Notes: generated by a model from the sequence alone, not told the origin. DNA of 64,000 nucleotides from Bacteroidota bacterium (GCA_041170435.1 JBEAYU010000072.1:6509-70508); one strand, 5' to 3'; positions 4,819 to 53,654 are shown, numbered from the stretch's first letter. Numbers and translations are program-made.

Positions 4819-6441
4819 GTGAATCACACGCGCATATATCGGCGACCGTATGCCCACAGTGGCATCGCCTTCCTAATCGTTACGCTTGCCTGTGCAGCGT
4901 TTGCACCGACTGCCGAAGCGCAGCGCGGCACGGCAACTTCCCGGGCTGATTCAGTTCGGAAAGCAAAGGAGTACTTCATCAATGGTACGACCCTGCAGCT
5001 GCAAGGTGGCAGAGCTGCCGAGGCCATTTTGGAGTTTCAGCAGGCCTTGCGTTTCGACACCACATCGACATGCTTGGCGGCGATCGCTCGCAGCTATGTG
5101 GAGCTTGGCAAGCTCGAGATCGCCCATGAATACGTGACGATGGCACTTGGCCGCAACAAGGAATCGACCGATAGCTGGGAACTCCTTGCCGAGATCGAAG
5201 TACAGCGTGGCCGTTATGACGAGGGGCTTCTTGCCTACGAACAGATCCTCTCTCTGAAGCCGACACGGCGTCACATACAGACACTGGCACGGTTGTACGA
5301 ACCTCGCAATGCTCGCCGTGCGATTGAGCTCTATGAACAACTCATTGAGTCAAAGTCCGACCTCTTTCTACTCGAGCGTCTGGCAGAACTCTATCAGCGA
5401 CTCAATGATGACGTCGGCCTGATCAAGACCTTCCGGCGTGCGGCAGAGATCGATCCTGCAGACGCTCAGATAGCGATCAATCTCGCTTTTGGGTACGTGC
5501 GCCAAGGAATGTTTGATGAGCTCAAAGATCTGCTCGGCCGCTGGACGGACCGTGATCCTGAGCTTAAGGGATCTGCCCGAGTATGGCTTGCAGCACTATC
5601 GGCGCTACACGAGGATACACTGGTCACGGGTATGTACGCGGACCAAACCACGGAGTTCATTGACGCATCGTTTCTGGTCCACTTATCATCATGGCCTGTG
5701 ATGTGCCTGTCTGCGGCCGTGGCCAGCCAGGTGCGGGATACATCTCGCATGATTCGTCATCTTGATGCGGCAGTCGTTGCTCCTGAGTCGATCGTAGAGA
5801 CCTATCTCGAAGCATATCGGCTTTGCATGCTCAACGACATGCATTATCAAGCACTTCGATATGTCAAGAATGGTCAGAGGAAGTATTCCGCCGACCTGAG
5901 ACTTCTCTACGCCGAAGCCTCGATACACTATGAGCAAGGGCAGGATCAACGTGCCATTGGGATCTATCGCGAGATCCTCGAAATGTCGCCCGTTCAAGTT
6001 GACGCGTGGTCTCAGCTTGGCTGGCTGTATGATCGTCGCGGTCACCTCGATAGCTCCGACGCCTGCTATGAGAGGGCCTTGCAGATCGATCCCAGAAACT
6101 CGTTCGTCTGCAACAACTATGCATACTCGCTCTGCCTTCGTGGCAACGATCTCGAGCGAGCCCTGTCACTGTCGAGAACGTCCCTCGAGACGGAACCGGA
6201 AAATCCGGCATACCTCGACACTTATGCGTGGATCCTCTATCACCTCGGTCGACTGGATCAAGCTATCGAAGCCGCAAAGGCTGCGATCATACATGGCGGC
6301 AACGCGACCCACTACGAACACTTCGGCTACATCCTTGAGGCTCGTGGCGAGACATCATTGGCCACAGAGGCCTGGATGAAATCTCTTGAACTGGATCCAA
6401 AGCGGACTCATCTGCAGGCCAAGATCGACCGATATCGCTGA
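4819..6441 (+). CDS. Secreted tetratricopeptide-repeat (TPR) protein
   Basis: GTG start and a signal-peptide-like N-terminus (IAFLIVTLACAAFAPTAEAQ). TPR-like A/Y/L-rich repeats occur throughout (e.g. AWSQLGWLYDRRGHLDSSDACYERALQIDPRN). Confidence 0.75.
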   Translation: MNHTRIYRRPYAHSGIAFLIVTLACAAFAPTAEAQRGTATSRADSVRKAKEYFINGTTLQLQGGRAAEAILEFQQALRFDTTSTCLAAIARSYVELGKLEIAHEYVTMALGRNKESTDSWELLAEIEVQRGRYDEGLLAYEQILSLKPTRRHIQTLARLYEPRNARRAIELYEQLIESKSDLFLLERLAELYQRLNDDVGLIKTFRRAAEIDPADAQIAINLAFGYVRQGMFDELKDLLGRWTDRDPELKGSARVWLAALSALHEDTLVTGMYADQTTEFIDASFLVHLSSWPVMCLSAAVASQVRDTSRMIRHLDAAVVAPESIVETYLEAYRLCMLNDMHYQALRYVKNGQRKYSADLRLLYAEASIHYEQGQDQRAIGIYREILEMSPVQVDAWSQLGWLYDRRGHLDSSDACYERALQIDPRNSFVCNNYAYSLCLRGNDLERALSLSRTSLETEPENPAYLDTYAWILYHLGRLDQAIEAAKAAIIHGGNATHYEHFGYILEARGETSLATEAWMKSLELDPKRTHLQAKIDRYR

Positions 6442-6470
6442 TCATCACCAACAACTGTTCCAACACGTAT

Positions 6471-6668
6471 ATGAAACAGCCACAAAGCACAGACCCACAA
6501 GACTACGAAGTCCTCATCCGTCGTCGTGGTGAATCTGATTACGCATCATACTGCCCGCAACTTGCACATATGATCAAGGGGCAAGCACATGAAGAAGTCG
6601 AAGAGGCAATGAAGCAGCACGTCCTTGCCTATATCGAGTCGCTGAAGAGCGCTACAACGCTTGCCTGA
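6471..6668 (+). CDS. Small HicB-like (UPF0150) protein, no adjacent HicA
   Basis: 65 aa. YEVLIRRRGESDYASYCPQLAHMIKGQAHEEVEEAMKQHV resembles the HicB N-terminal fold pattern. No DNA-binding extension and no HicA-like ORF nearby. Confidence 0.45.
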   Translation: MKQPQSTDPQDYEVLIRRRGESDYASYCPQLAHMIKGQAHEEVEEAMKQHVLAYIESLKSATTLA

Positions 6669-6690
6669 ACGTTCTTGGTTGTGAACGAGC

Positions 6691-7188
6691 ATGACATCGG
6701 ACATCGCATCTGGATACTTGCTCATGCGGCGTTGGGAGACGCGACTTGTCATCGCATGGATCGTGATGATTTCAATCGGGGTGCTTTGTCTCTTCGTATC
6801 GATGGCATTGGCACAGTGGATCTCGCTGCTGACCATTGCGATAGGCGTTCTCCTGTATCTGCTGCTGTCGTCGGCAGTTAGCCCAACCTACAGCGGAACG
6901 ACAGGCGCTGCCAAGATGATCTTTGCGTTGCCGCCCATGATGATCTCGGCACTCTTCTTTGGGGTGCTCGACCGCTGGATGCGCCGTGTGGGCTTTGGAG
7001 TCAAGATGCGCGTTGGCGTCACCTCGCTTGCTCTCGTGGCCGTCGCCACACCGTGGGCATCACCGTCTGCATTAGTGCTATTGCTCATGTGTGGACTGAC
7101 CTCCGCGCTGATGCGAGTACGGTTTTCTTCTGCCATCGCCTGCATTCCATCGGCCCTTGCCCTTCTCATCATCATGGCAGGCAGGTAA
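6691..7188 (+). CDS. Hypothetical multi-pass membrane protein
   Basis: 165 aa with 4-5 hydrophobic helices and no recognisable motif. It ends 3 nt before the CPBP gene. Confidence 0.55.
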   Translation: MTSDIASGYLLMRRWETRLVIAWIVMISIGVLCLFVSMALAQWISLLTIAIGVLLYLLLSSAVSPTYSGTTGAAKMIFALPPMMISALFFGVLDRWMRRVGFGVKMRVGVTSLALVAVATPWASPSALVLLLMCGLTSALMRVRFSSAIACIPSALALLIIMAGR

Positions 7189-7191
7189 CCG

Positions 7192-8145
7192 TTGTCGATG
7201 AACAATGAGTTTACACTGAACGGATCTACACAGTCCTGGACGCGGCACTGGGTGGTGCGTTTGCTCGTGCTCGTGGTCATCGTCGAAACAGCAACTCCGC
7301 TCATGTACGGAATGTTCATGGTTTCGGAACTACTCCACCCATGGGACCCATATCATCTGTCCGGGATAATGTGCGCACTTATTGGTTTGACCGCTCTCGG
7401 TTCGATGATCCTTCTCGAGCACCGTCATATTGGTGGACATTCGACAATGGCATCGGGACTGATTCCGACATCGCGATCGCCTCGTCTGTTCGTCGGAGGT
7501 GTGCTGTGGGCAACGGCGATGATCGCTGCCGTCGGATTGGTGGCAGTGGCTCTTGGAGCTCGACTTGTCGAGAGTCAACTCAGCTTAGGACGTTACAGCC
7601 TTGCTTTCAGCATTGCCTTGTCCACCGGCGAAGAACTTGTCTTTCGTGCGGGCATGCTCTCGATCGTGTCCGAGCGTTTTGGTTCAGTGACCGGCGTGAT
7701 TGTGACAAGCCTGGTGTTTGGTCTCATCCATCTGAGCAATCCTGATGCTGGCCTTCTGAGCACACTCAACACCGTATTGATCGGCCTCGCATTCGGTGTC
7801 ACAACCGTACGATCGGGCTCTATCTGGACGGCCGTCGGGTGCCACGCAACGTGGAATCTGCTCGTGGCACTCTTCTTCGGAACCGTCAGTGGCTTTGTTG
7901 GATCGGAAATGGGCCTGTCATGGTTCACACTGGTGACGGACGAGTCATCGTTGACCACGACGTTGTTTCCCGGCGCTTACGGAATCGAAGCAAGCCCCCT
8001 TGCCACATTGGTCATCATCATTTCTTTTCCCTTTCTTCGTCATATCTCACGGCCCGACCCATACATCATGGCAGCTCGGTATCGCGACGCATTTTCAACC
8101 AGACATTCTCCCGTCACCATCCCCCACTCCATAACACAGTCATGA
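7192..8145 (+). CDS. CPBP (CAAX/Abi) family intramembrane glutamic metalloprotease
   Basis: All three family motifs are present: EELVFRAG, FGLIHLSN and HATWNLL. The protein is polytopic. Start is TTG 7192 or ATG 7198. Confidence 0.8.
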   Translation: MSMNNEFTLNGSTQSWTRHWVVRLLVLVVIVETATPLMYGMFMVSELLHPWDPYHLSGIMCALIGLTALGSMILLEHRHIGGHSTMASGLIPTSRSPRLFVGGVLWATAMIAAVGLVAVALGARLVESQLSLGRYSLAFSIALSTGEELVFRAGMLSIVSERFGSVTGVIVTSLVFGLIHLSNPDAGLLSTLNTVLIGLAFGVTTVRSGSIWTAVGCHATWNLLVALFFGTVSGFVGSEMGLSWFTLVTDESSLTTTLFPGAYGIEASPLATLVIIISFPFLRHISRPDPYIMAARYRDAFSTRHSPVTIPHSITQS

Positions 8146-9290
8146 AGCACCGAATAGTTCTGATTCTGACTCTTCTGGTTGCGAGCACGCACATGCATGC
8201 TCAGTGGGTTGCCATGTCAACCGAGGCTGACTCGCTGGTTCAGCTCGGGACGCGGCATGTGTATAATGTCGAGTTCGAACAAGCCCAAGATGTATTCGAC
8301 GAGGTCATTCGCCGGTATCCGACGCATCCGGCAGGGTACTTTCTCGACGCGATGATCGAATGGTGGAAGATGACGATCGGACAGACCAGCCCAAGCGTCG
8401 AAGCTCGCTTTCTTGCCAAACTCGACAAGGTCATCTCGGTCTGCGACGCCAACCTGGCAGCAAGTCCAAAGGACATCGCATCTCTCTTTTTCAAAGGGGG
8501 CGCATTGGGCTATAGAGGACGGTACAACGCCACGCGCAACAACATGCTCAGTGCCGCAGAAGATGGACGCGTGGCTCTTGGAATCTTGAACGACTGCCAA
8601 AAGATCGCACCCGGGAATCACGACATTCTGCTCGGCACTGGACTCTACAACTACTGGGCAGCTGTCCTGCCGGAAAAATACCCGGCACTGAAGCCCGTGA
8701 TGATCTTTCTTCCAAAGGGCGACAAGATCATTGGTCTTGCACAGCTCAAGGCCGCGGCGCGTCAGGCACGATACGCGGCAGTCGAAGCAAAGGTGGTTCT
8801 CGTTCAGGCATACTTCGATTTCGAAAAGAATGCTCTCGAGGCTATCGAGTTTGCCCGTGACCTCCACAGATCCTACCCCCGCAATCCCGCATTTCACCGT
8901 GCCTATGGTCGATGCCTAGTATCCCTGGGTCCGATCGATTCGGCGGCAGCAGTCTGGCGCGATGTGCTCAACCGTTGCCTCGATAAGTGGCCCGGATATC
9001 ATCGCAATGCCGCTCGAGAGGCCCTCTATTACGTGGGCGTATCACTCATGATACGGGGCGATCTGGACAAGGCACTCACATACTTCTATAAGTGCGACGA
9101 GGCCTGTCGAAAGATCGACGAAGATGCATCAGGCTTCATCATCAAGACCAACCTGAAGGTCGGTCAGATCTACGATCTGCAAGGAAAGCGCGATCTGGCC
9201 ATCAAGCAATACAAGAAGATTCTGTCGTGGTCCGATAACAATGGCTCACACGCCGAGGCACAGCGCTACCTGACCACCCCATATCGATGA
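8142..9290 (+). CDS. Secreted TPR-like protein
   Basis: The internal ATG at 8142 gives the signal peptide MKHRIVLILTLLVASTHMHAQ and overlaps the CPBP stop (ATGA). The longer 7839 start lies inside the CPBP gene in another frame. Confidence 0.65.
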   Translation: MKHRIVLILTLLVASTHMHAQWVAMSTEADSLVQLGTRHVYNVEFEQAQDVFDEVIRRYPTHPAGYFLDAMIEWWKMTIGQTSPSVEARFLAKLDKVISVCDANLAASPKDIASLFFKGGALGYRGRYNATRNNMLSAAEDGRVALGILNDCQKIAPGNHDILLGTGLYNYWAAVLPEKYPALKPVMIFLPKGDKIIGLAQLKAAARQARYAAVEAKVVLVQAYFDFEKNALEAIEFARDLHRSYPRNPAFHRAYGRCLVSLGPIDSAAAVWRDVLNRCLDKWPGYHRNAAREALYYVGVSLMIRGDLDKALTYFYKCDEACRKIDEDASGFIIKTNLKVGQIYDLQGKRDLAIKQYKKILSWSDNNGSHAEAQRYLTTPYR

Positions 9291-9332
9291 GTGACGGCGT
9301 ATTTTTGTGTTTCTACCACCACGGTGAAAACA

Positions 9333-11464
<2,132 letters not shown>

Positions 11465-43566: not shown

Positions 43567-45102
43567 TCAGTGATGACGTCGACGAGAGATAATGCCGCCC
43601 GATGTGTCCTTGATGGCACTGGCAAAAACAAAGGCATTGGGATCGACTTCAGAGATCAAGTTTTTAAGCTTGCGCAGTTCAAGTCGCGTGATCACGGTAA
43701 AGATGATGTCGCACTGCGTGCTCACGTGAAAGCTCTCCGGCAGAAAGCCCCGTTCGCCCTTATACACGGTAATGCCCCGACCGAGGTTATTGACGAGCTG
43801 ATGTTTGATCTCTTCGCTCTTTGCCGAGATGATCGTCACGCCGGTAAACGCTTCCAAGCCCTCGACCATGTAGTCGATACAGCGCGATGCAGTGAAGTAC
43901 GTCAGGATCGAATACAAGGCCGTCTCGATCCCAAACACGAAGCCGGCGACAACGAAGATCATCACATTGATGGCCAGTATGATCTCGGCGATGGTGAAGC
44001 TTGTTCGGCGCAACGTGTACAGGGCCAGCACCTCGATTCCGTCAAGTGCGGCGCCGGCACGCATCACGAGCCCGACGCCAATTCCGAGAAACGCCCCACC
44101 GAAGACGGCGACAAGGAGTTTATCGCCCGTGGCAGAAACAGACGGGATGACCTCCAGACAAATGCCCAGAAGCAGGACTCCAAAGGACATCCCAATGGCA
44201 AACCGCTTCCCCGCCGAAAGATAACCGGCGATGATCAGCGGCACATTCAATAGGACGATCAGAAGACCAAGTGGCCAGTGATTCAGCTCATGAATCAATA
44301 GCGAGATGCCGGTGACGCCACCGTCGACGAAGTGATTCGGCACAAGAAAGTCCTTGAGCGCGATACTCGCCATCACGACACCGACAATGGTCAGAAGCAT
44401 ATCTCGGCCGTATTCATTCCACAGTGAACCACTGGCAGGGGGCTCAGCACTGACGTGCGTGCCTGTCGACATTTCTGCGTTGAGCTGACGGCGTATGTTC
44501 TCTAGGTTGACAGCTTTCTGAGCATCGAACATCCGGCGCGCCGCGTCTGTATGGTAGGAGTGCTGTGAGATAAAGCCGACCTGCTGTCTACGCCATGCGT
44601 GGTCGGTCAGTTCCGGCTGAGTGATCCGATACTCTTCGTACATACGGTCAGCGTATGATTGATATGCCGCACTTGCAAGGGGTGCTAGATCAGCGTCGCA
44701 CACGACCATGCTTATGTGATCTGTAGGATTTTGGGGAACCTGCGTGCTGCGAATAGCTCGGCAGACCGCCTCGATCGCTTGAACATCGTAACCGAATGAA
44801 GGAAGATTCTCTCGCGCCCACGCACAAGAACGCTCTTCATGTCCTGCGCGCCCATCCCTATACCCCACGTCATGCAAGAGGGCCGCCGTTTGCGCAAGAA
44901 TCATCGAGCGCTCATCAAGACCCTCCGCCTGTGCGATGCGCTCCGCGTCAGCGAGTACCTGCAGGGCATGTTCAGCATTGTGATAGGCATACTCCTTGCC
45001 GATGTGGCGTTGCATGTATGCGATAACGACGTCTTTTAGGTCAAGAAACTGCATTGGTACGTTTGCCAGTAATGATGGATGGTGAGTTCCTAGAAGTATC
45101 AC
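43567..45102 (-). CDS. HD-domain phosphohydrolase fused to a YitT-family (DUF2179) membrane protein
   Basis: The N-terminal roughly 200 aa contain YHNAEHALQV and AALLHDVGY (H...HD). The C-terminal roughly 290 aa contain FVDGGVTGISLLI, five TM helices and the DUF2179-like tail GVTIISAKSEEIKHQLVNNLGRGITVYKGERGF. The GTG start at 45102 overlaps the cyclase stop; an alternative ATG is at 45054. Confidence 0.75.
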   Translation of the reverse strand: MILLGTHHPSLLANVPMQFLDLKDVVIAYMQRHIGKEYAYHNAEHALQVLADAERIAQAEGLDERSMILAQTAALLHDVGYRDGRAGHEERSCAWARENLPSFGYDVQAIEAVCRAIRSTQVPQNPTDHISMVVCDADLAPLASAAYQSYADRMYEEYRITQPELTDHAWRRQQVGFISQHSYHTDAARRMFDAQKAVNLENIRRQLNAEMSTGTHVSAEPPASGSLWNEYGRDMLLTIVGVVMASIALKDFLVPNHFVDGGVTGISLLIHELNHWPLGLLIVLLNVPLIIAGYLSAGKRFAIGMSFGVLLLGICLEVIPSVSATGDKLLVAVFGGAFLGIGVGLVMRAGAALDGIEVLALYTLRRTSFTIAEIILAINVMIFVVAGFVFGIETALYSILTYFTASRCIDYMVEGLEAFTGVTIISAKSEEIKHQLVNNLGRGITVYKGERGFLPESFHVSTQCDIIFTVITRLELRKLKNLISEVDPNAFVFASAIKDTSGGIISRRRHH

Positions 45103-46394
45103 GTGTTCTCTGCTTCACTCGATGCGCCATCAGCCGGTGTTGCATCAGATACAACAAAGACATCGATCTCTCCGCGATTCTTGGCCATCACTGTCCCTGA
45201 GTGCGTGCACGGCACCTCGCCTCGCACGAGTTCGTGCGTCACCGAGCTCATGCTGATACGGTTGACCTGGCCAAGTTGCTGAAGTCTTGCCGCTACATTG
45301 ACAGTGTCTCCCCAAATATCGTAGGCAAACTTCTTCTTACCCACGATGCCGGCGACAACCGGACCGGAGTGAACGCCAATGCGCACGTCAAACCCTGTTC
45401 CGCTCTGCTGCACTTCCTGCTGATGCATCTCTTCAACCACAGCCAACATCTCACGAGCGGCGGCGATGATGCGCAGGGCATGCTCTTCAGACTCGACAGG
45501 CAAACCAGCGACGCACATGTAGCTATCGCCCATGGTCTTGATCTTCTCTATCCCATGCCGATCCATGATCGAGTCGAACCTCGTGAAATACCGGTCGATG
45601 TGCGTGACCAGTTCAGTTGCCGTCATGGTCTGGCTGATGCGCGTGAAGCTGACGAAGTCTGCGAAGAGCACCGATACCATCTCGTAAGCGCGAGGTCGCG
45701 CCACGCCAACAGATTTCAACTCCTGCACGGTAGCTTCAGGAAGAATATTCAATAGAAGACTGTCACTGAGCTCCTGCTCCCTGCGCAGCTCCTCCTGCTT
45801 TTCTTCGAGAAGTCTCAGGGCATCGTTCTTGGTCTGTTCGTAGGTGTTCGTCACAAGAAACATGATGATCACAAGCCCGCTCAATGCCAACGTCAAAAAG
45901 ATGGTGTGAAATGACGGGATGTAGGTAACTGGTATGGATGCGATCGAATCATGCATGAGTACCATCACGATGACGTAGGCCACCGACACCACGACGAAAA
46001 CAATGGCGGTTCGCACGTTGCAGAAGATCAGTGCAAAGATCGCAGGTAAAATGATGAAGGGGGTGACGGGCGACGTGAAGAGTCCGCCCGAAAATGTCAC
46101 AAGGATAATGTTCAGCGCGAGGATAAACGACGCGAAGATCACTCCAAGGAGCCAAATCGAGCGGCCGCTTCGAAGCACAAACGGCAGCGCCGCAAACATC
46201 ACCACCGAGGCAATCATTGCGTAAAGGCCCACCGTGAAGTTGATAAAGTAGCTCATCACTCCGTAGGTGCCGGCAAAGAGGGCAACAATCAGGCTGGTTG
46301 CTACGAAGATCTTGTGACGACGGATGGTATCCGGCCGCTGCGCCAGATCGGCAGGCAGAAAGCTGTCGAGCCAAGCTGAGAGACTTAACTTCAT
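45099..46394 (-). CDS. Membrane-bound class III adenylate cyclase (6 TM plus catalytic domain)
   Basis: VSVLFADFVSFT and KTMGDSYMCVAGLP supply the metal Asp residues and the adenine-specifying Lys. FAYDIWGDTVNVAARL supplies the specifying Asp and the transition-state Asn/Arg. The start overlaps the upstream 7-TM gene stop (ATGA at 46391-46394). Confidence 0.85.
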   Translation of the reverse strand: MKLSLSAWLDSFLPADLAQRPDTIRRHKIFVATSLIVALFAGTYGVMSYFINFTVGLYAMIASVVMFAALPFVLRSGRSIWLLGVIFASFILALNIILVTFSGGLFTSPVTPFIILPAIFALIFCNVRTAIVFVVVSVAYVIVMVLMHDSIASIPVTYIPSFHTIFLTLALSGLVIIMFLVTNTYEQTKNDALRLLEEKQEELRREQELSDSLLLNILPEATVQELKSVGVARPRAYEMVSVLFADFVSFTRISQTMTATELVTHIDRYFTRFDSIMDRHGIEKIKTMGDSYMCVAGLPVESEEHALRIIAAAREMLAVVEEMHQQEVQQSGTGFDVRIGVHSGPVVAGIVGKKKFAYDIWGDTVNVAARLQQLGQVNRISMSSVTHELVRGEVPCTHSGTVMAKNRGEIDVFVVSDATPADGASSEAENT

Positions 46395-47095
46395 GTCGAG
46401 ACACCAACCTTCTGCGATCGTTGCAGCAGGATCAGGTACAGTACATCAAAGAATGCGACCGTCAAGTAGAGTGTGGTCAAGAAGAGATTGTCGGGGTACT
46501 TCGTTTGGAACATCACACTGATGATCCCCGTGCCCACAAATTTTGTCCAGGCCAGCAGCCTCGAGGACTCTTGTGAACCTTTGGACAGCAGGAGTCCGAT
46601 GAATGCAATGGACATGACTACGTTGACGAGGTAGTTGGTTATCACGGCCATCGGCAGGTCATACTGCACCATGAAAGATGAGCACAGGGATATGCTGAAG
46701 ATGAAACTCACGGTGATAAGCCATCCGAAGTTCTGCCTCACGAAGCTTGCTTTGAACTGATCGCGACCGTAACGAAAGAGATTGAGGATGATCACGATAT
46801 CAAGCAACATCCACATCCAATAGGCAAGAACAAGTGCCTTTCCCATGTCCGGTACAAAGAAGATTGCCGCCCCAACCTCTGCTCCGAAATTGCAGATCAC
46901 TGCGGCAACAGGAATGATGAGTTCTTTCTTTCTGAATGCCGCACGCAGAATGATGACGTATGCAATGATCCAGGCCACAGCTCCGATGGTAAAGAGCGCG
47001 ATCTGCCATGGATGGTAGTTCGTCGTGTCAAACCATGGATGCTGACTCTGTAGATACTCCCAGATTGGCATGCTAACCCCGCTGATACGTGTCAT
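46391..47095 (-). CDS. Hypothetical 7-TM membrane protein; possible PaxB/Pyr4-like integral-membrane terpenoid cyclase
   Basis: 234 aa with seven hydrophobic helices. TM1-TM2 read WIIAYVIILRAAFRKKELIIPVAAVICNFGAEVG, and an acidic residue sits in the last helix (AFFDVLYL). An alternative start is ATG 47071. Confidence 0.6.
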   Translation of the reverse strand: MTRISGVSMPIWEYLQSQHPWFDTTNYHPWQIALFTIGAVAWIIAYVIILRAAFRKKELIIPVAAVICNFGAEVGAAIFFVPDMGKALVLAYWMWMLLDIVIILNLFRYGRDQFKASFVRQNFGWLITVSFIFSISLCSSFMVQYDLPMAVITNYLVNVVMSIAFIGLLLSKGSQESSRLLAWTKFVGTGIISVMFQTKYPDNLFLTTLYLTVAFFDVLYLILLQRSQKVGVST

Positions 47096-47109
47096 ATCTC
47101 AACCAGCCT

Positions 47110-48825
47110 TCAGGCCGGTGTGCGTCCGAAACGATGACGCAGAAAGGAAAGAACGGACAGTCCGAATTCGACCAGGCAGTTCATGGGTGGACGCCATGGT
47201 AGCCCCCTATCATAGCGTCGCTTGTCGAGCGCTCTCAGCGCCTGCAGGGCAACTGGCTCGTGGATGTCCCAGACCGCACATTGTTGGGCCCTATTGCCTG
47301 TAGACTCGAGAATTGCATTGACGGCCCGTCGTGCAGCTTCGTTAGCTGCCTCCATGGTGGCCAGGTCCGTATTGGTCCGTACGTAGTCAGAAGCGAGAAA
47401 GAGATTATCGATCGCCGAATAGGCCTCTGGCCGGTCGTCCCATGATCGCACGGTATTGACAAGCAGCGGCTCTTCATTCATCTCGCGTTCGTGCGGCAGC
47501 GCCCTGATATCTCCATCAATATGCCAGTACTCGATCATGTCGTCAGACAAGACAACGGTACCATCCACATTGAGAGCATCACAGAGTTGCTTCCATACCT
47601 CTATGCGGATATCCTCGTGCGAGCATTCGCGGGCGATCTTTCCGTTCGAACCCGGAGTGTCCCATGCCGAAACATCAACCGACAGGATGCATCGTACCCG
47701 ACCGTTGCCGCGTTGTTCGATATTATATCCCGGCCAGAACTGCAGCTGGGATATTGACGTCAGTGCCCACGGGGAATCTGAATAAATGGCATGCCCGTGT
47801 ACGATTGGTCTATCGGTGTTCAGGTAGTACTGCACGCCATTCATCCAGGCCACGCTGGGAGCCAAGCGCACGATTCCCTGTAGGTTGGAATCAAGCGCCA
47901 TCAATTCTTCGGTCATCAGTTTGGCTGCGCGCTCAACCGGAACCGCGAGCACGTAGATGTCGGCTTGAACTTCATGAAGGTGGTTTGAGGAATCCTTGAC
48001 CGTTGCCGATGCGATGGTGGATCCGCCAACGGTGAGCTTCTCAACGGTATGGCCAAGATGAAAGCGCACTCCGCACTGTTCAAGATACTCTCTCCAAGGC
48101 GTGAGCCACGCATCATTCGTTGGTCCATTCAGAACCCTGTCCGTGTGCACTCCCGGACTGGACATGTTGAAGAGCAATTGAAGGAAAATGTTCCCGCCTG
48201 TCTTTGTACTTGCCGAGTGGGCATTGGCGGCAACCAGCGTTCGTGTTAACCCCTGAACAAGCAATGCCCGATAGGTGTCACTGAACCGATCAGCCTGCAA
48301 GAAGTCCCACCAGGCAATTCTCTCGTACTCATCGCGACGCCGCTCCCGGCAGCTGGTCATCAACTGCCACACTCTCTCGGCGAAGAAATCCATCTCCTCG
48401 TCGGAGAGACCGGTATCAGCCGTCAGGTCGCCAAAAAGTACTCTTACGTCTGCGATGGTCTTTGGAAAATTGACGATCGCCGTGAGCGATGGTTTCCCCT
48501 TTCGCGCAACGAGTACCCGATCTGTCGGCGTAAGGTTGTCGAACACGGTTGCAACCTTTCCGTCGGCCCGGCGATAAGGGATGCGTGACATGGTATCTGT
48601 CACGTGACGATAGAAGCCGGGAAAGAATCGGAAGCCGTGCTCTCCCGGAAGAGACCTATCAGCATGCATCTGATTCGTCCCCGGCACATCAACACTGCGC
48701 GCCTTGCCACCGACATACACATGATGCCGGTCATAGACGTCAACAGTGAAGCCCCGCTCAACGAGCTCATGCGCTGCGCTCAGGCCGGCCACTCCGCCGC
48801 CAAGCACAGCAACTCTATGTGCCAT
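47110..48825 (-). CDS. FAD-dependent oxidoreductase, amine-oxidase / phytoene-desaturase-like
   Basis: VAVLGGGVAGLSAAHELVERGFTVDVYD....GGKARS is a Rossmann dinucleotide fold. GEHGFRFFPGFY parallels the PDS/ZDS segment. The ATG at 48825 is preceded by GGGGAGG. The 57-nt upstream extension in the ORF track was not used. Confidence 0.75.
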   Translation of the reverse strand: MAHRVAVLGGGVAGLSAAHELVERGFTVDVYDRHHVYVGGKARSVDVPGTNQMHADRSLPGEHGFRFFPGFYRHVTDTMSRIPYRRADGKVATVFDNLTPTDRVLVARKGKPSLTAIVNFPKTIADVRVLFGDLTADTGLSDEEMDFFAERVWQLMTSCRERRRDEYERIAWWDFLQADRFSDTYRALLVQGLTRTLVAANAHSASTKTGGNIFLQLLFNMSSPGVHTDRVLNGPTNDAWLTPWREYLEQCGVRFHLGHTVEKLTVGGSTIASATVKDSSNHLHEVQADIYVLAVPVERAAKLMTEELMALDSNLQGIVRLAPSVAWMNGVQYYLNTDRPIVHGHAIYSDSPWALTSISQLQFWPGYNIEQRGNGRVRCILSVDVSAWDTPGSNGKIARECSHEDIRIEVWKQLCDALNVDGTVVLSDDMIEYWHIDGDIRALPHEREMNEEPLLVNTVRSWDDRPEAYSAIDNLFLASDYVRTNTDLATMEAANEAARRAVNAILESTGNRAQQCAVWDIHEPVALQALRALDKRRYDRGLPWRPPMNCLVEFGLSVLSFLRHRFGRTPA

Positions 48826-48914
48826 CAGTGTGCCTCCCCATGCGGTCACGTAAGACGAATGAAAATATAGCTTAATCGACAATCCGAAACATCATCGGGT
48901 CCGCGACGTCAGCG

Positions 48915-51989: not shown

Positions 51990-53654
51990 TCAGACCTGGA
52001 AGACACCCGTCTTGAGTTCCGGCAACGTGCCCTGGTGAGAGGCAACGGCAATACCACGAGAGATCATCTGACGCGTATCACTCGGGGCGATGATTCCGTC
52101 CACCCAGAGCCGCGAGGCGGCGTACACCGGTGTGGTGGTGGCATCATAGCGCTTCTGGATCTCGGCCAGCATCGACTTTTGACGCTCGGGTGTGAGCTGC
52201 TCACCCTGCTTTTCCAGCTGGGCGACCTTGATCGTAAGCAAGGTCTTGGCTGCTTGAGCACCTCCCATGACGGCGATCTGAGCCGTTGGCCAGGCATAGA
52301 TCAGTCGGGGATCGTAGGCCTTGCCGCACATCGCGTAATTGCCGGCACCATAGGAGTTGCCTATGATGACGGTAAACTTCGGTACCACACTGTTGGCTAC
52401 GGCGTTCACGAGTTTGGCGCCGTCCTTGATGATACCTCCCTGCTCGGCGCGTGTGCCCACCATGAAGCCCGTCACGTCTTGTAGGAAGACCAGCGGAATC
52501 CCCCGCTGATTACAGTTCAGGATGAATCGTGCGGCCTTGTCGGCAGAGTCGGAATAGATCACGCCCCCTACCTGCATCTCGCCTTTGCCCGAGCGCGTGA
52601 TCTCACGATTGTTGGCAACGAGACCGACCGACCAACCATCGATGCGAGCATAGCCGCAGATGATGCTCTGTCCATACTCAGCCTTGTATTCATCGAAGTC
52701 CGACGCATCGATAAGCCGAGCGATGATCTGACGCGTATTGTAGGGCTTGGCCCGGTCTGCCGGAATGATGCCATAGATCTCTTCCACGTCGAAGGCTGGT
52801 TCGCGGGGCTCGACGCGAGAGAACAGCGGCGATGGCCCCTTCGTCGGAGAGAACTTATCGACTAGTGACCTGATCGTATCGATGGCCTCCTGATCGGACT
52901 CAACCTTGTAGTCGACCACACCGCTGACCGTGCTGTGCATTGTTGCACCGCCAAGGGGCTCGATACCGGTCTTTTCTCCGATGGCAGCCTCGACGAGGGC
53001 CGGACCAGCAAGAAAGACGCTACCGGTACCATTCACGATGATGGCCTCGTCGCACATGATCGGCAGGTACGCGCCTCCGGCCACGCACGGGCCCATGATG
53101 GCGGCGATCTGCGGAATCCCCAAGGCGCTCATCATCGCATTGTTGCGGAACTGACGTCCGAAGTGCTCCTTGTCGGGAAAGATCTCGTCCTGCATCGGCA
53201 AGAACACGCCGGCCGAATCGACAAGGTAGATGATCGGAAGTCGGTTCTCGAGGGCGATCTCCTGAGCGCGCATGTTCTTTTTGGCAGTCATCGGGAACCA
53301 CGCGCCGGCCTTGACGGTGGCATCGTTGGCCACGATCATGCACTCGCGTCCGTGAATGATGCCGATACCCGATACCACACCGGCCCCGGGACAGCCACCT
53401 TCCTCCTCATACATGCCATGCGCCGTTAGCAGCCCCACCTCGAGAATGGTCGTTCCCGGATCGACCAACGCTTCGATGCGCTCGCGTGCCGTCATCTTTC
53501 CCTTGGCGCGATGGCGCTCAATGGCCTTCTTCCCGCCGCCAAGTTTTACGGCTGCGCTGATGCCCTCGATCACGCGAAGCGTCTGCCGATTGGCATCAGC
53601 ATTGGCCTCATAGGCAAGGTCGTGGTTTATCGGTGAACCGATGGTGCGTGCCAT
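51990..53654 (-). CDS. Acyl-CoA carboxylase carboxyltransferase (beta) subunit
   Basis: KGKMTARERIEALVDPGT, IVANDATVKAGAW and GPCVAGGAYLP are carboxyl_trans domain signatures. Substrate (methylcrotonyl-, propionyl- or glutaconyl-CoA) is not resolved. Confidence 0.85.
   Translation of the reverse strand: MARTIGSPINHDLAYEANADANRQTLRVIEGISAAVKLGGGKKAIERHRAKGKMTARERIEALVDPGTTILEVGLLTAHGMYEEEGGCPGAGVVSGIGIIHGRECMIVANDATVKAGAWFPMTAKKNMRAQEIALENRLPIIYLVDSAGVFLPMQDEIFPDKEHFGRQFRNNAMMSALGIPQIAAIMGPCVAGGAYLPIMCDEAIIVNGTGSVFLAGPALVEAAIGEKTGIEPLGGATMHSTVSGVVDYKVESDQEAIDTIRSLVDKFSPTKGPSPLFSRVEPREPAFDVEEIYGIIPADRAKPYNTRQIIARLIDASDFDEYKAEYGQSIICGYARIDGWSVGLVANNREITRSGKGEMQVGGVIYSDSADKAARFILNCNQRGIPLVFLQDVTGFMVGTRAEQGGIIKDGAKLVNAVANSVVPKFTVIIGNSYGAGNYAMCGKAYDPRLIYAWPTAQIAVMGGAQAAKTLLTIKVAQLEKQGEQLTPERQKSMLAEIQKRYDATTTPVYAASRLWVDGIIAPSDTRQMISRGIAVASHQGTLPELKTGVFQV

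What the first reader, a model, noticed from the sequence alone, without database searches (positions are those of the whole stretch)
43567..48825. Translationally coupled four-gene membrane module: PDS-like flavoprotein, 7-TM protein, 6-TM adenylate cyclase, HD-YitT fusion
Seen in the sequence: four minus-strand genes are packed with almost no spacing. The flavoprotein stop (47110-47112) lies 14 nt from the 7-TM ATG (47095). The 7-TM stop and cyclase start overlap as ATGA (46391-46394). The cyclase stop and a GTG start of the HD-YitT gene overlap as GTGA (45099-45102). The first gene has its own GGGGAGG Shine-Dalgarno and a TATATTTT box about 50 nt upstream. The module is bounded by a convergent GT2 gene on the left and a 90-nt gap on the right. 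Three of the four products are integral membrane proteins, and the flavoprotein ends in a hydrophobic tail. I do not know of a described operon that links a lipid- or terpenoid-type redox/cyclase pair to a cAMP synthase and to a nucleotide-hydrolase domain welded to a YitT/DUF2179 membrane protein. Inference only: this may be a membrane-lipid or terpenoid-sensing cAMP circuit whose output or turnover is handled by the HD-YitT protein.
Basis: partly seen in the sequence, partly recalled or inferred. Interest (0 to 1): 0.7.

Follow-up and report, generated by a model that had tools for sequence, protein, structure and literature searches.

The report
Terpenoid enzyme pair locked to cAMP sensor
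A phytoene-desaturase-like flavoprotein and a membrane terpene cyclase are encoded immediately before a six-helix membrane sensor that makes cAMP, and this three-gene unit is conserved across two bacterial phyla, which suggests a testable case of a membrane adenylate cyclase whose lipid signal is made by its own operon partners.

Summary
The four tightly packed minus-strand genes are real. Comparative genomics shows a three-gene core with a fourth, accessory gene.

- **Core:** the order PDS-like flavoprotein, then Pyr4-type 7-TM terpene cyclase (TMTC), then 6-TM sensor recurs in about 50 loci from Bacteroidota and Acidimicrobiia with unrelated flanks.
- **Adjacency:** the flavoprotein is adjacent in 39 of 40 genome loci. 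A sensor follows in 36 of 42, and its start almost always overlaps the TMTC stop.
- **Sensor input:** the 6-TM domain belongs to a MASE6-like sensor family whose members carry HK, cyclase, PP2C, MCP or GGDEF outputs.
- **Sensor output:** next to the TMTC the output is an adenylate cyclase (30 loci) or a histidine kinase (at least 4 separate clades). Three of the HK loci also encode a REC-adenylate cyclase.
- **Cyclase:** all catalytic residues are invariant, so it should be active and ATP-specific.
- **Context:** no prenyl-synthase genes recur, so this is a signalling module, not a biosynthetic cluster.
- **HD-YitT:** it is lineage-specific, though related HD proteins recur nearby in three architectures. 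Its real start is probably ATG 45054, so the GTGA overlap is likely spurious.

Best reading, inferred and not shown: the two enzymes make or convert a membrane isoprenoid that the 6-TM domain senses. I found no description of this coupling in the literature.

The parts
47110..48825 (-). PDS-like FAD flavoprotein (571 aa), first gene of the conserved trio. It is peripheral rather than integral to the membrane.
   Evidence: Pfam Amino_oxidase 7.9e-16 and NAD_binding_8. NCBIfam best hit is HpnE at 85 bits, far below its 283-bit cutoff. AF2 model pLDDT 84.3, pTM 0.86. Foldseek top hit is rice phytoene desaturase 5mog, E 8.5e-24, TM 0.82. It lies directly upstream of the TMTC in 39 of 40 genome loci. 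No TM segment is predicted.
46391..47095 (-). Pyr4-type 7-TM terpene cyclase (TMTC), 234 aa. Orthologues suggest the start may be ATG 47071 (Met9).
   Evidence: PF25129 at 50.9 bits against a cutoff of 27. The AF2 model shows 7 helices, pLDDT 84. Invariant polar and acidic residues across 24 homologues include E73, D99, D146, D217, N69 and K185. 122 homologues were found, mostly Bacteroidota and Acidimicrobiia.
46391..46394 (-). ATGA overlap between the TMTC stop and the sensor-cyclase start.
   Evidence: Seen in the sequence. The same 4-nt overlap occurs in 28 sensor-bearing loci, and candidate starts overlap by 1-29 nt in the rest.
45750..46394 (-). 6-TM membrane sensor input domain (residues 1-215 of the cyclase), MASE6-like family.
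   Evidence: Exhaustive phmmer found 335 representative clusters, always with the domain at the N-terminus. Outputs among 95 of them: HATPase_c 42, Guanylate_cyc 25, SpoIIE 14, MCPsignal 8, GGDEF 2; 13 match Pfam MASE6. The same domain is fused to HisKA-HATPase at the same genomic position in L019, L031, L044, L045, L047, L050, L059 and L061; L062 also has an HK in that slot, but its 6-TM region gave no match. The window copy itself does not reach the Pfam MASE6 model and has no relative in the PDB.
45150..45692 (-). Class III (IIIa-like) adenylate cyclase catalytic domain (residues 235-415).
   Evidence: Guanylate_cyc 5.2e-49. D246, K286, D290, R338, D359, N366, R370 and K405 are invariant in 25 TMTC-linked cyclases; the K/D pair specifies ATP. 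Closest solved relatives are AC8, AC9, AC5 and M. tuberculosis Cya/Rv1625c 7yzi.
43567..45054 (-). HD-YitT-DUF2179 fusion (495 aa from ATG 45054). A lineage-specific accessory gene, not part of the conserved core.
   Evidence: HD 2.8e-08, YitT_membrane 8.5e-58, DUF2179 1.8e-12. Present in L001/L005/L053 but absent from L002/L003/L007 and most other loci. HD homologues at 28-38% identity lie near the trio in L004, L017, L028 and L036. Closest PDB entry is 2pq7, a 'predicted HD superfamily hydrolase', at 1.1e-06.
48826..48914 (-). Upstream intergenic region with a Shine-Dalgarno-like GGGGAGG (48839-48833) and TATATTTT (48869-48862).
   Evidence: Seen in the sequence. The sigma-70 consensus scan found nothing above chance. 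Any resemblance of TATATTTT to a Bacteroidota-type -7 element (TAnnTTTG) is my recollection and was not tested.

Best explanation
The functional unit is a three-gene membrane signalling module.

Proposed mechanism:
1. A phytoene-desaturase-like flavoprotein docks on the membrane. Together with a Pyr4-type 7-TM terpene cyclase it converts a resident membrane isoprenoid, made elsewhere in the genome, into a desaturated and cyclised terpenoid.
2. That lipid, or the substrate/product balance, is read inside the bilayer by the MASE6-like 6-TM domain of the protein encoded next. The gene for this protein is translationally coupled to the cyclase gene.
3. In this window the sensor drives a catalytically intact class III adenylate cyclase, so the output is cAMP.
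4. In other lineages the same input domain drives a histidine kinase. That kinase signals to a LuxR-type regulator or to a REC-adenylate cyclase.
5. The HD-YitT gene is a lineage-specific add-on. Its HD phosphohydrolase domain probably acts in the nucleotide branch, for example in cAMP turnover.

Shown: the gene order and its conservation, the domain identities, the intact catalytic residues and the output swapping.

Inferred: that the enzymes make the ligand, what the substrate is, and what the HD domain does.
For: 1. Conservation with unrelated flanks. The FLAV-TMTC-sensor order holds in Kapabacteria, Lacibacter, Algoriphagus, Aquiflexum, Ilyomonas, Saprospiraceae, Flavobacteriales, Saccharicrinis and seven or more Acidimicrobiia MAGs. 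FLAV is adjacent in 39 of 40 loci and a sensor follows in 36 of 42.
2. An unbiased ORF-family census finds only these three families recurring broadly: 50, 49 and 38+ loci. The next family is HD at 6 loci.
3. The sensor start overlaps the TMTC stop in essentially all loci, by 4 nt in 28 of them.
4. The input domain is constant while the output varies. There are 30 AC and 6 HK among the genome loci, plus L059, L061 and L062. HK types fall in at least 4 separate TMTC clades. This places the coupling at the membrane-input level, not at the output.
5. cAMP recurs as the end output even in HK loci. REC-Guanylate_cyc genes are present in L044, L045 and L062.
6. The 6-TM domain belongs to a sensor family with HK, AC, PP2C, MCP and GGDEF outputs.
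7. The enzymes look competent. The FLAV model best matches phytoene desaturase. The TMTC passes the Pfam cutoff and keeps invariant intramembrane acidic residues. All AC catalytic residues are invariant.
8. A FLAV-DUF6989 fusion protein (P0372) shows that the flavoprotein works together with the membrane protein encoded after it.
9. Published work proposes that the 6-TM anchors of class III ACs act as receptors and has shown lipid regulation for mammalian ACs and Rv1625c (PMC4821796, PMC11606603, PMC12505454; seen).
Against: - There is no biochemical evidence. The substrate and product are unknown, and no prenyl-synthase, phytoene-synthase or squalene-synthase gene is linked.
- One clade keeps FLAV-TMTC without an adjacent sensor (L037, L041, L042, L043, L046). 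The enzyme pair therefore has a function that does not strictly require the sensor.
- In Hufsiella the TMTC slot is filled by DUF6989, which is not detectably homologous. Cyclase chemistry may therefore not be the constant feature.
- MCP-type and other members of the 6-TM family sit in unrelated contexts.
- Gene adjacency cannot tell 'the enzymes make the ligand' apart from 'the sensor regulates the pathway'.
- The window's 6-TM domain does not reach the Pfam MASE6 model.
Confidence: 0.5

Rival explanations
1. Feedback homeostasis. The flavoprotein and TMTC are ordinary biosynthetic enzymes for a structural membrane terpenoid, such as a carotenoid-like or polycyclic lipid. The 6-TM sensor monitors membrane state or envelope stress and, through cAMP or phosphorelay, controls expression of the pathway. 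The sensor is the pathway's regulator, not the receiver of a dedicated signal.
For: Two-component and cAMP genes often sit next to the operons they control. L019 and L031 have a REC-LuxR transcription factor right after the kinase. A clade keeps FLAV-TMTC without the sensor, which fits a stand-alone biosynthetic role. The FLAV model resembles a carotenoid desaturase.
Against: What is conserved is the input domain and its translational coupling to the TMTC, while outputs vary between cAMP, LuxR-type RR and REC-AC. A regulator-target relationship would be expected to conserve the output. No other pathway genes are linked. The two readings are not mutually exclusive, because a product-sensing feedback loop would satisfy both.
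Confidence: 0.25
2. Protein-level redox sensing. The flavoprotein acts as an FAD/quinone-linked redox or oxygen sensor. It signals by protein contact through the 7-TM protein to the 6-TM sensor, and no lipid product serves as messenger. The TMTC-like or DUF6989 protein is a membrane adaptor.
For: The middle protein can be replaced by the unrelated DUF6989 while the flavoprotein and sensor stay. A flavoprotein-DUF6989 fusion exists. Translational coupling suggests stoichiometric complexes. By established knowledge, PDS-type enzymes use quinones as electron acceptors.
Against: The TMTC keeps invariant intramembrane acidic residues typical of Bronsted-acid cyclases, and it passes the Pfam cutoff. 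The flavoprotein keeps a full PDS-like substrate domain, not just an FAD module. No interaction was modelled here.
Confidence: 0.12
3. One reading: an obligate four-gene operon in which HD-YitT is an integral, translationally coupled output or turnover component of the circuit.
For: All four genes are syntenic in the closest Kapabacteria genome. HD homologues recur near the trio in Chitinophagaceae, alongside cNMP-binding and HEAT genes. In L028 the HD gene sits next to a separate YitT gene. No terminator lies in the 44-nt gap.
Against: HD-YitT is absent from a 75%-identical relative and from about 85% of loci. The GTGA overlap depends on a GTG start that orthologues and gene callers contradict. 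HD orientation and partners differ between lineages.
Confidence: 0.1
4. A cryptic meroterpenoid or secondary-metabolite cluster, or a Pycsar-like defence cyclase, whose adjacency to signalling genes is incidental.
For: In fungi and actinomycetes, Pyr4-like cyclases are known from natural-product clusters (PMC13307353). Weak PycC hits were found, the best at 57.7 bits.
Against: No prenyltransferase, polyprenyl synthase, P450 or other tailoring gene recurs. The cyclase scores 167 bits on the general class III model, has the ATP-specifying K/D pair, and no Pycsar effector is nearby. Adjacency with overlapping codons across two phyla is not incidental.
Confidence: 0.03

Closest known systems
CqsA/CqsS (Vibrio) and LqsA/LqsS (Legionella): an autoinducer synthase gene next to a 6-TM sensor kinase that binds a lipophilic signal in the membrane
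   Same: An enzyme that makes a hydrophobic small molecule is encoded beside a six-helix membrane receptor. A 6-TM receptor of this design can drive a class III cyclase when swapped in (PMC4821796). Here the same input domain naturally carries either HK or AC outputs.
   Different: The enzymes are a PDS-like flavoprotein plus a terpene cyclase, not a PLP-dependent acyl-CoA transferase. Homology of this 6-TM domain to CqsS was not tested. Whether the product is released between cells is unknown.
Rv1625c/Cya of M. tuberculosis and mammalian membrane adenylyl cyclases (class IIIa, 6-TM anchors proposed to be lipid receptors)
   Same: The architecture is 6-TM followed by a helical linker and a class III catalytic domain. 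The catalytic domain is most similar to AC8, AC9, AC5 and 7yzi. All catalytic residues are present. Lipid regulation through the membrane domain has been reported for these enzymes (PMC11606603, PMC12505454).
   Different: The membrane domain here shows no detectable sequence similarity to Rv1625c or any PDB chain and belongs to a MASE6-like family. Unlike those cyclases, it is genetically locked to lipid-modifying enzymes.
Pyr4-like transmembrane terpene cyclases (PF25129; Pyr4, XiaH, TylF, GroF, the zigralone cyclase)
   Same: It passes the Pfam family threshold, has seven TM helices and keeps conserved intramembrane acidic residues.
   Different: Known members sit in natural-product clusters with prenyltransferases, polyprenyl synthases and epoxidases or P450s (PMC13307353). 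This clade has none of those. It is paired with an amine-oxidase/PDS-type flavoprotein and a sensor. The 2026 survey of bacterial Pyr4-like cyclases kept only those with terpenoid genes nearby and does not mention this clade.
Plant-type phytoene desaturase PDS, zeta-carotene desaturase and HpnE (amine-oxidase superfamily polyene oxidoreductases)
   Same: PDS 5mog is the best structural match (E 8.5e-24, TM 0.82). The N-terminal FAD-binding fold and the Amino_oxidase domain are present. The best NCBIfam hits are HpnE and the carotene desaturases.
   Different: Scores are far below every equivalog cutoff: HpnE 85 against 283, PDS 35 against 569. Identity to PDS is about 15%. It is about 100 residues longer than PDS. 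The substrate is unknown.
MASE6 (PF20966) and other MASE-type integral-membrane sensor domains
   Same: It is an N-terminal polytopic membrane domain fused to HK, AC, PP2C, MCP or GGDEF outputs. 13 of 95 relatives reach the MASE6 model.
   Different: The window protein itself does not reach the model. To my knowledge no ligand is established for MASE6, and I found no literature on it.

Membership tests
Pyr4-like transmembrane terpene cyclase (PF25129) | Sequence match to the family model above the curated threshold | tested here: met
   50.9 bits against a cutoff of 27, E 2.2e-13, model positions 10-188 of 227. Homologues carry the precomputed PF25129 label.
Pyr4-like transmembrane terpene cyclase (PF25129) | Compact seven-helix integral membrane protein | tested here: met
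   The AF2 model has 7 long helices, pLDDT 84.2, pTM 0.80. Six or seven hydropathy peaks are present.
Pyr4-like transmembrane terpene cyclase (PF25129) | Conserved intramembrane acidic residue acting as Bronsted acid (Pyr4 E63/D218, from memory) | tested here: inconclusive
   E73, D99, D146 and D217 are invariant in 24 homologues. I could not align to Pyr4 itself, so the correspondence rests on position only.
Pyr4-like transmembrane terpene cyclase (PF25129) | Genomic association with prenyltransferase, polyprenyl synthase, and epoxidase or P450 (meroterpenoid BGC context) | tested here: not met
   No such family recurs in about 50 loci. Pfam annotations of the neighbours show none.
Pyr4-like transmembrane terpene cyclase (PF25129) | Terpene cyclisation activity | not testable with these tools
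   This requires an enzyme assay or heterologous expression.
Class III adenylate cyclase (PF00211), membrane-bound 6-TM type | Catalytic domain match plus two metal Asp, substrate-specifying Lys/Asp, and transition-state Asn/Arg | tested here: met
   166.8 bits. D246, D290, K286, D359, N366, R370, R338 and K405 are invariant in 25 sequences.
Class III adenylate cyclase (PF00211), membrane-bound 6-TM type | Membrane domain homologous to that of Rv1625c or mammalian ACs | tested here: not met
   Residues 1-215 find no PDB chain at E<=10.
Phytoene desaturase / HpnE (amine-oxidase superfamily) | Score above the equivalog cutoff of a named enzyme family | tested here: not met
   HpnE 85 against 283, zeta-carotene desaturase 52 against 622, PDS 35 against 569, CrtD 28 against 550.
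Phytoene desaturase / HpnE (amine-oxidase superfamily) | FAD-binding Rossmann fold plus PDS-like substrate domain | tested here: met
   Amino_oxidase spans residues 12-506. Foldseek top hit is 5mog at E 8.5e-24, with the next hits near 1e-19.
MASE6 sensor domain (PF20966) | Match to the Pfam model | tested here: inconclusive
   The window domain gives no hit at E<=1. The L061 homologue hits at E 0.2 over 9-164 of 170. 13 of 95 phmmer relatives hit at E<=1e-4.
MASE6 sensor domain (PF20966) | N-terminal polytopic domain combined with diverse signalling outputs | tested here: met
   HK 42, AC 25, SpoIIE 14, MCP 8 and GGDEF 2 among 95 relatives; the domain is always N-terminal.
YitT/DUF2179 membrane protein with N-terminal HD domain | Pfam matches above threshold for all three domains | tested here: met
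   YitT_membrane 195.6 bits, DUF2179 47.3 bits, HD 34.5 bits.
Cyclic-nucleotide phosphodiesterase (for the HD domain) | Homology to a characterised cAMP phosphodiesterase | tested here: not met
   The best PDB hit is the uncharacterised HD hydrolase 2pq7 (1.1e-06). Class I PDEs hit only at E 0.25, over the YHNxxHA/HD motifs.
Pycsar anti-phage cyclase system | PycC cyclase with an adjacent cNMP-activated effector (PycTM/PycTIR) | tested here: not met
   PycC hits are weak (57.7 bits or less), and the other three proteins give no PADLOC hit to any Pycsar effector or other defence component; the flavoprotein has one marginal N-terminal Rossmann-fold hit to a desaturase model. The K/D pair specifies ATP.

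The most novel reading that the evidence does not exclude
The trio may be a self-contained terpenoid signalling system. In this reading a desaturase-cyclase pair synthesises a dedicated cyclic isoprenoid messenger, possibly exchanged between cells as in CqsA/CqsS quorum sensing or formed in response to oxygen, quinone redox state or photo-oxidative stress. The 6-TM domain of an adenylate cyclase or histidine kinase would be its specific intramembrane receptor. That would be the first natural, genetically defined ligand-synthesis/receptor pair for a membrane adenylate cyclase anchor and for a MASE-type sensor domain. It would also be the first signalling role for a Pyr4-type terpene cyclase.
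Probability: 0.2. Interest if true: 0.9.

Novelty: new variant of a known kind. Interest (0 to 1): 0.72.

Why it matters
What the six-helix membrane anchors of class III adenylate cyclases sense is a long-standing open question. Recent work argues they are lipid receptors, but the ligands were found by screening and are not defined genetically. MASE-type membrane sensor domains also largely lack known ligands.

This locus, and about 50 like it in two phyla, offers a natural experiment. A 6-TM sensor is translationally coupled to two lipid-modifying enzymes, and its output domain has been swapped repeatedly while that coupling was kept. The question can therefore be tested with three genes in an E. 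coli cya-minus reporter strain, or in cultured hosts such as Lacibacter sp. H407, Algoriphagus aestuarii, Aquiflexum lacus, Ilyomonas limi and Saccharicrinis.

It also extends Pyr4-type terpene cyclases, so far known from natural-product pathways, to a probable signalling role. It marks a large uncharacterised PDS-like flavoprotein family that genome annotation currently mislabels as 'phytoene dehydrogenase' or 'hydroxysqualene dehydroxylase'.

Tried and rejected
1. The word-indexed homologue search with the 6-TM domain alone gave only 3 hits. I replaced it with the exhaustive phmmer search.
2. GTG 45102 as the HD-YitT start is rejected in favour of ATG 45054.
3. DUF6989 as a divergent TMTC: hhalign gave probability 0.5%, E 0.13, so no homology is detectable.
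4. Homology of the 6-TM domain to Rv1625c or any solved membrane domain: none at E<=10.
5. Direct MASE6 membership of the window domain: no hit.
6. The idea that MASE6-like sensors are generally paired with flavoproteins. One hybrid HK (L055) has an abutting FAD_binding_3-type flavoprotein. A related hybrid HK (L063) and two MCP-type members do not. The idea is not general.
7. A defence (Pycsar) reading is rejected.
8. Sigma-70 promoter and intrinsic-terminator scans found nothing above chance and nothing intergenic.
9. A solved structure for the TMTC: none by sequence. By fold there is only weak SWEET/PQ-loop/KDEL-receptor similarity, E about 0.02, TM about 0.5.
10. Literature searches for Pyr4/terpene cyclase with adenylate cyclase or histidine kinase, for MASE6 and for DUF6989 found nothing relevant.

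Full report
**Observation**

The region holds four minus-strand ORFs at 47110-48825, 46391-47095, 45099-46394 and 43567-45102.
- The TGA at 47112-47110 is 14 nt before the ATG at 47095.
- ATGA is at 46394-46391 and GTGA at 45102-45099.
- GGGGAGG lies 7 nt before the ATG at 48825, and TATATTTT is at 48869-48862.

Pfam assigns the following:
- Gene 1: Amino_oxidase/NAD_binding_8.
- Gene 2: PF25129, 'Pyr4-like transmembrane terpene cyclase' (50.9 bits against a cutoff of 27).
- Gene 3: Guanylate_cyc (residues 235-415).
- Gene 4: HD + YitT_membrane + DUF2179.

The neighbours are a convergent GT2 glycosyltransferase, a MatE transporter, a Zn-ribbon protein and a large FAD/Fe-S oxidase.

Three details need correcting:
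- The HD-YitT gene most likely starts at ATG 45054. Gene callers and the Kapabacteria orthologue give 495 aa, and residue 1 of the stand-alone HD homologues aligns there. The 'GTGA coupling' is therefore probably spurious and a 44-nt gap remains. That gap contains no terminator-like hairpin.
- TMTC orthologues start at the window's Met9.
- The flavoprotein has no TM-grade hydrophobic tail.

**Source organism**

The window matches a Bacteroidota/Kapabacteria MAG. P0001 is 100% identical to the TMTC.

**Synteny**

Contexts of TMTC homologues separate a core from an accessory gene:
- A Kapabacteria genome (82% identity) keeps all four genes and the flanks.
- A 75%-identical relative keeps only flavoprotein-TMTC-cyclase, in rearranged surroundings and without HD-YitT.
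- Lacibacter sp. H407 (62% identity) keeps the trio in entirely different surroundings.

A scan of one genome per species returned 48 loci. They come from Kapabacteria, Chitinophagales, Cytophagales (Algoriphagus, Aquiflexum), Saprospiraceae, Flavobacteriales and at least seven Acidimicrobiia MAGs.

tblastn with the window proteins gave these counts:
- The flavoprotein lies directly upstream of the TMTC in 39 of 40 loci with room.
- A homologue of gene 3 lies directly downstream in 36 of 42.

The sensor's start codon overlaps the TMTC stop in essentially every case, by 4 nt in 28 loci.

An all-against-all census of ORF families across the loci finds only three real families recurring broadly: TMTC in 50 loci, flavoprotein in 49, sensor in 38 or more. 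The HD family follows in 6 loci, then cNMP-binding and HEAT proteins in 4 each. No prenyl-synthase, phytoene-synthase or squalene-synthase, prenyltransferase or P450 family recurs.

**The sensor**

In L019, L031, L044, L045, L047 and L050 the gene after the TMTC has the same N-terminal 6-TM domain (22-30% identity to the window's). Its C-terminal half is HisKA-HATPase_c instead of a cyclase. The same holds in L059 and L061. L062 also has an HK in this slot, but its 6-TM region gave no blastp match, so that case is unconfirmed.

The kinases are accompanied by:
- A REC-LuxR regulator in L019 and L031.
- A REC-adenylate cyclase in L044, L045 and L062.

On a neighbour-joining tree of the TMTCs, HK-type loci fall in at least four separate clades among AC-type loci. 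The tree has no bootstrap support, so this is indicative only.

An exhaustive phmmer search with residues 1-215 against 1.84 billion representatives found 335 clusters, and the domain was always N-terminal. Among 95 of these, the fused domains were:

| Fused domain | Members |
|---|---|
| HATPase_c | 42 |
| Guanylate_cyc | 25 |
| SpoIIE | 14 |
| MCPsignal | 8 |
| GGDEF | 2 |
| Pfam MASE6 match | 13 |

The window copy itself does not reach the MASE6 model, and it has no sequence relative in the PDB. More distant family members (MCP-type, some hybrid kinases) sit in unrelated contexts. Only one clade of the family is therefore tied to the enzyme pair.

A constant input domain with varying outputs is the signature of a sensor module. 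It places the link to the enzymes at the membrane-input level.

**The enzymes**

The cyclase keeps every canonical class III residue in all 25 TMTC-linked sequences:
- Metal-binding D246 and D290.
- ATP-specifying K286 and D359.
- Transition-state N366 and R370.
- R338 and K405.

Its closest solved relatives are mammalian AC8, AC9 and AC5 and M. tuberculosis Cya/Rv1625c.

The flavoprotein falls far below every NCBIfam equivalog cutoff; the best is HpnE at 85 bits against 283. It has no close PDB relative by sequence. A confident AF2 model (pLDDT 84.3, pTM 0.86) matches rice phytoene desaturase best, at E 8.5e-24 and TM 0.82. That is about four orders of magnitude ahead of oleate hydratases, monoamine oxidases and protoporphyrinogen oxidase. 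Its family is large, with at least 7995 hits, and carries only generic or automatically assigned names.

The TMTC model is a seven-helix bundle (pLDDT 84) with only weak SWEET/PQ-loop/KDEL-receptor resemblance. E73, D99, D146 and D217 are invariant.

In Hufsiella the TMTC slot is taken by a DUF6989 protein with no detectable homology to the TMTC. P0372 is a flavoprotein-DUF6989 fusion.

**HD-YitT**

The HD domain is a generic HD phosphohydrolase. Its best PDB hit is 2pq7 at 1.1e-06, and class I phosphodiesterases match only at E 0.25.

Homologues at 28-38% identity occur near the trio in three architectures:
- Fused to YitT (window, L001).
- As adjacent YitT and HD genes divergent from the flavoprotein (L028).
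- In a cNMP-binding + HEAT-repeat + HD set convergent with or following the cyclase (L004, L012 partial, L017, L036).

This suggests a recurrent but optional link to the cyclic-nucleotide branch. The function is inferred only.

**Interpretation**

What is shown: a conserved, translationally coupled three-gene unit. It consists of a PDS-like flavoprotein, a Pyr4-type membrane terpene cyclase, and a MASE6-like 6-TM sensor whose output is cAMP here and phosphorelay, often ending in cAMP, elsewhere.

What is inferred: the two enzymes convert a common membrane isoprenoid into a cyclised product that the 6-TM domain senses.

Points that keep my confidence in the specific mechanism near 0.5:
- One clade has the enzyme pair without the sensor.
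- The DUF6989 substitution exists.
- No product has been identified.

I consider functional linkage of the three genes very likely (about 0.9).

The rival readings are:
- A feedback regulator of a structural-lipid pathway.
- Protein-level redox signalling.
- A natural-product or defence locus, which the data disfavour.

**Relation to the literature**

The 2026 survey of bacterial Pyr4-like cyclases retained only those with terpenoid genes nearby. It does not mention Bacteroidota, adenylate cyclases or kinases. Searches combining terpene cyclase or Pyr4 with adenylate cyclase or histidine kinase, and searches for MASE6 and DUF6989, returned nothing relevant.

The nearest conceptual precedents, all seen, are:
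- Synthase-plus-6-TM-receptor pairs such as CqsA/CqsS (PMC4821796).
- The proposal that AC membrane domains are lipid receptors (PMC11606603, PMC12505454).

**Verdict**

I rate the module as a new variant of a known kind: a ligand-synthesis genes plus membrane-receptor arrangement with previously unlinked parts. Interest is 0.72, because it offers a direct three-gene test of what a 6-TM adenylate cyclase anchor senses.

Noticed in passing
L036:6199-15953: A Chitinophagaceae MAG carries a tandem duplication: flavoprotein, TMTC', AC', TMTC, AC. These are followed by a 913-aa HEAT-repeat protein, a 151-aa cNMP-binding protein and a 205-aa HD protein. One flavoprotein appears to serve two cyclase-sensor pairs.
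   Followed up: partly
L061:7001-11466 and protein P0372: In Hufsiella ginkgonis the slot between the flavoprotein and the 6-TM kinase holds a DUF6989 (PF22497) membrane protein that is not detectably homologous to the TMTC. P0372 (806 aa) is a natural flavoprotein-DUF6989 fusion. A cNMP-binding gene lies convergent downstream.
   Followed up: partly
L064:3745-8240: A FadL/TodX-type outer-membrane channel gene for hydrophobic compounds (Toluene_X) overlaps by 4 nt the start of a MASE6-like PAS hybrid histidine kinase. This fits the idea that this 6-TM family senses lipophilic molecules. It is a single case.
   Followed up: no
L055:459-5648: A 455-aa FAD_binding_3/Pyr_redox_3 flavoprotein, with a weak N-terminal Lycopene_cycl hit, abuts a MASE6-like hybrid histidine kinase that is followed by REC-GGDEF. 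The pairing was not seen in a related hybrid kinase (L063).
   Followed up: partly
L037, L038, L041, L042, L043, L046 (around 6000-10750 in the 20-kb loci): One Bacteroidota clade keeps flavoprotein and TMTC separated by a 200-500 nt gap and has no adjacent sensor. It consistently has a SIS-domain (GKRP-like) gene and a giant 1500-1800-aa ORF upstream.
   Followed up: partly
window:46391-47095 (model m235c587ce28c): The predicted TMTC fold weakly resembles the 7-TM SWEET/PQ-loop (cystinosin)/KDEL-receptor fold (Foldseek E about 0.02, TM about 0.5). No Pyr4-family structure was found in the PDB copy, by sequence profile or by fold.
   Followed up: no
window:49257-51980 and 51990-53654: A 907-aa fusion of FAD_binding_4/FAD-oxidase_C with Fe-S and CCG domains (a GlcD/GlcF-like or D-lactate-dehydrogenase-like fusion) sits next to an acyl-CoA carboxyltransferase. 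The pair is conserved in Kapabacteria relatives even where the trio has moved (L002).
   Followed up: no
window:39814-40906: An ECF-type sigma factor (Sigma70_r2/r4) is followed by an overlapping ORF that could be an anti-sigma factor. It lies just beyond the MatE gene and is conserved in the Kapabacteria relative.
   Followed up: no
L005 and L006: The same Kapabacteria MAG (ZLKRG19) holds two contigs, each with a copy of the trio. The copies are similarly related to the window (about 80% identity) and are close sisters on the TMTC tree. This could be a paralogous second copy or strain heterogeneity in the bin.
   Followed up: no
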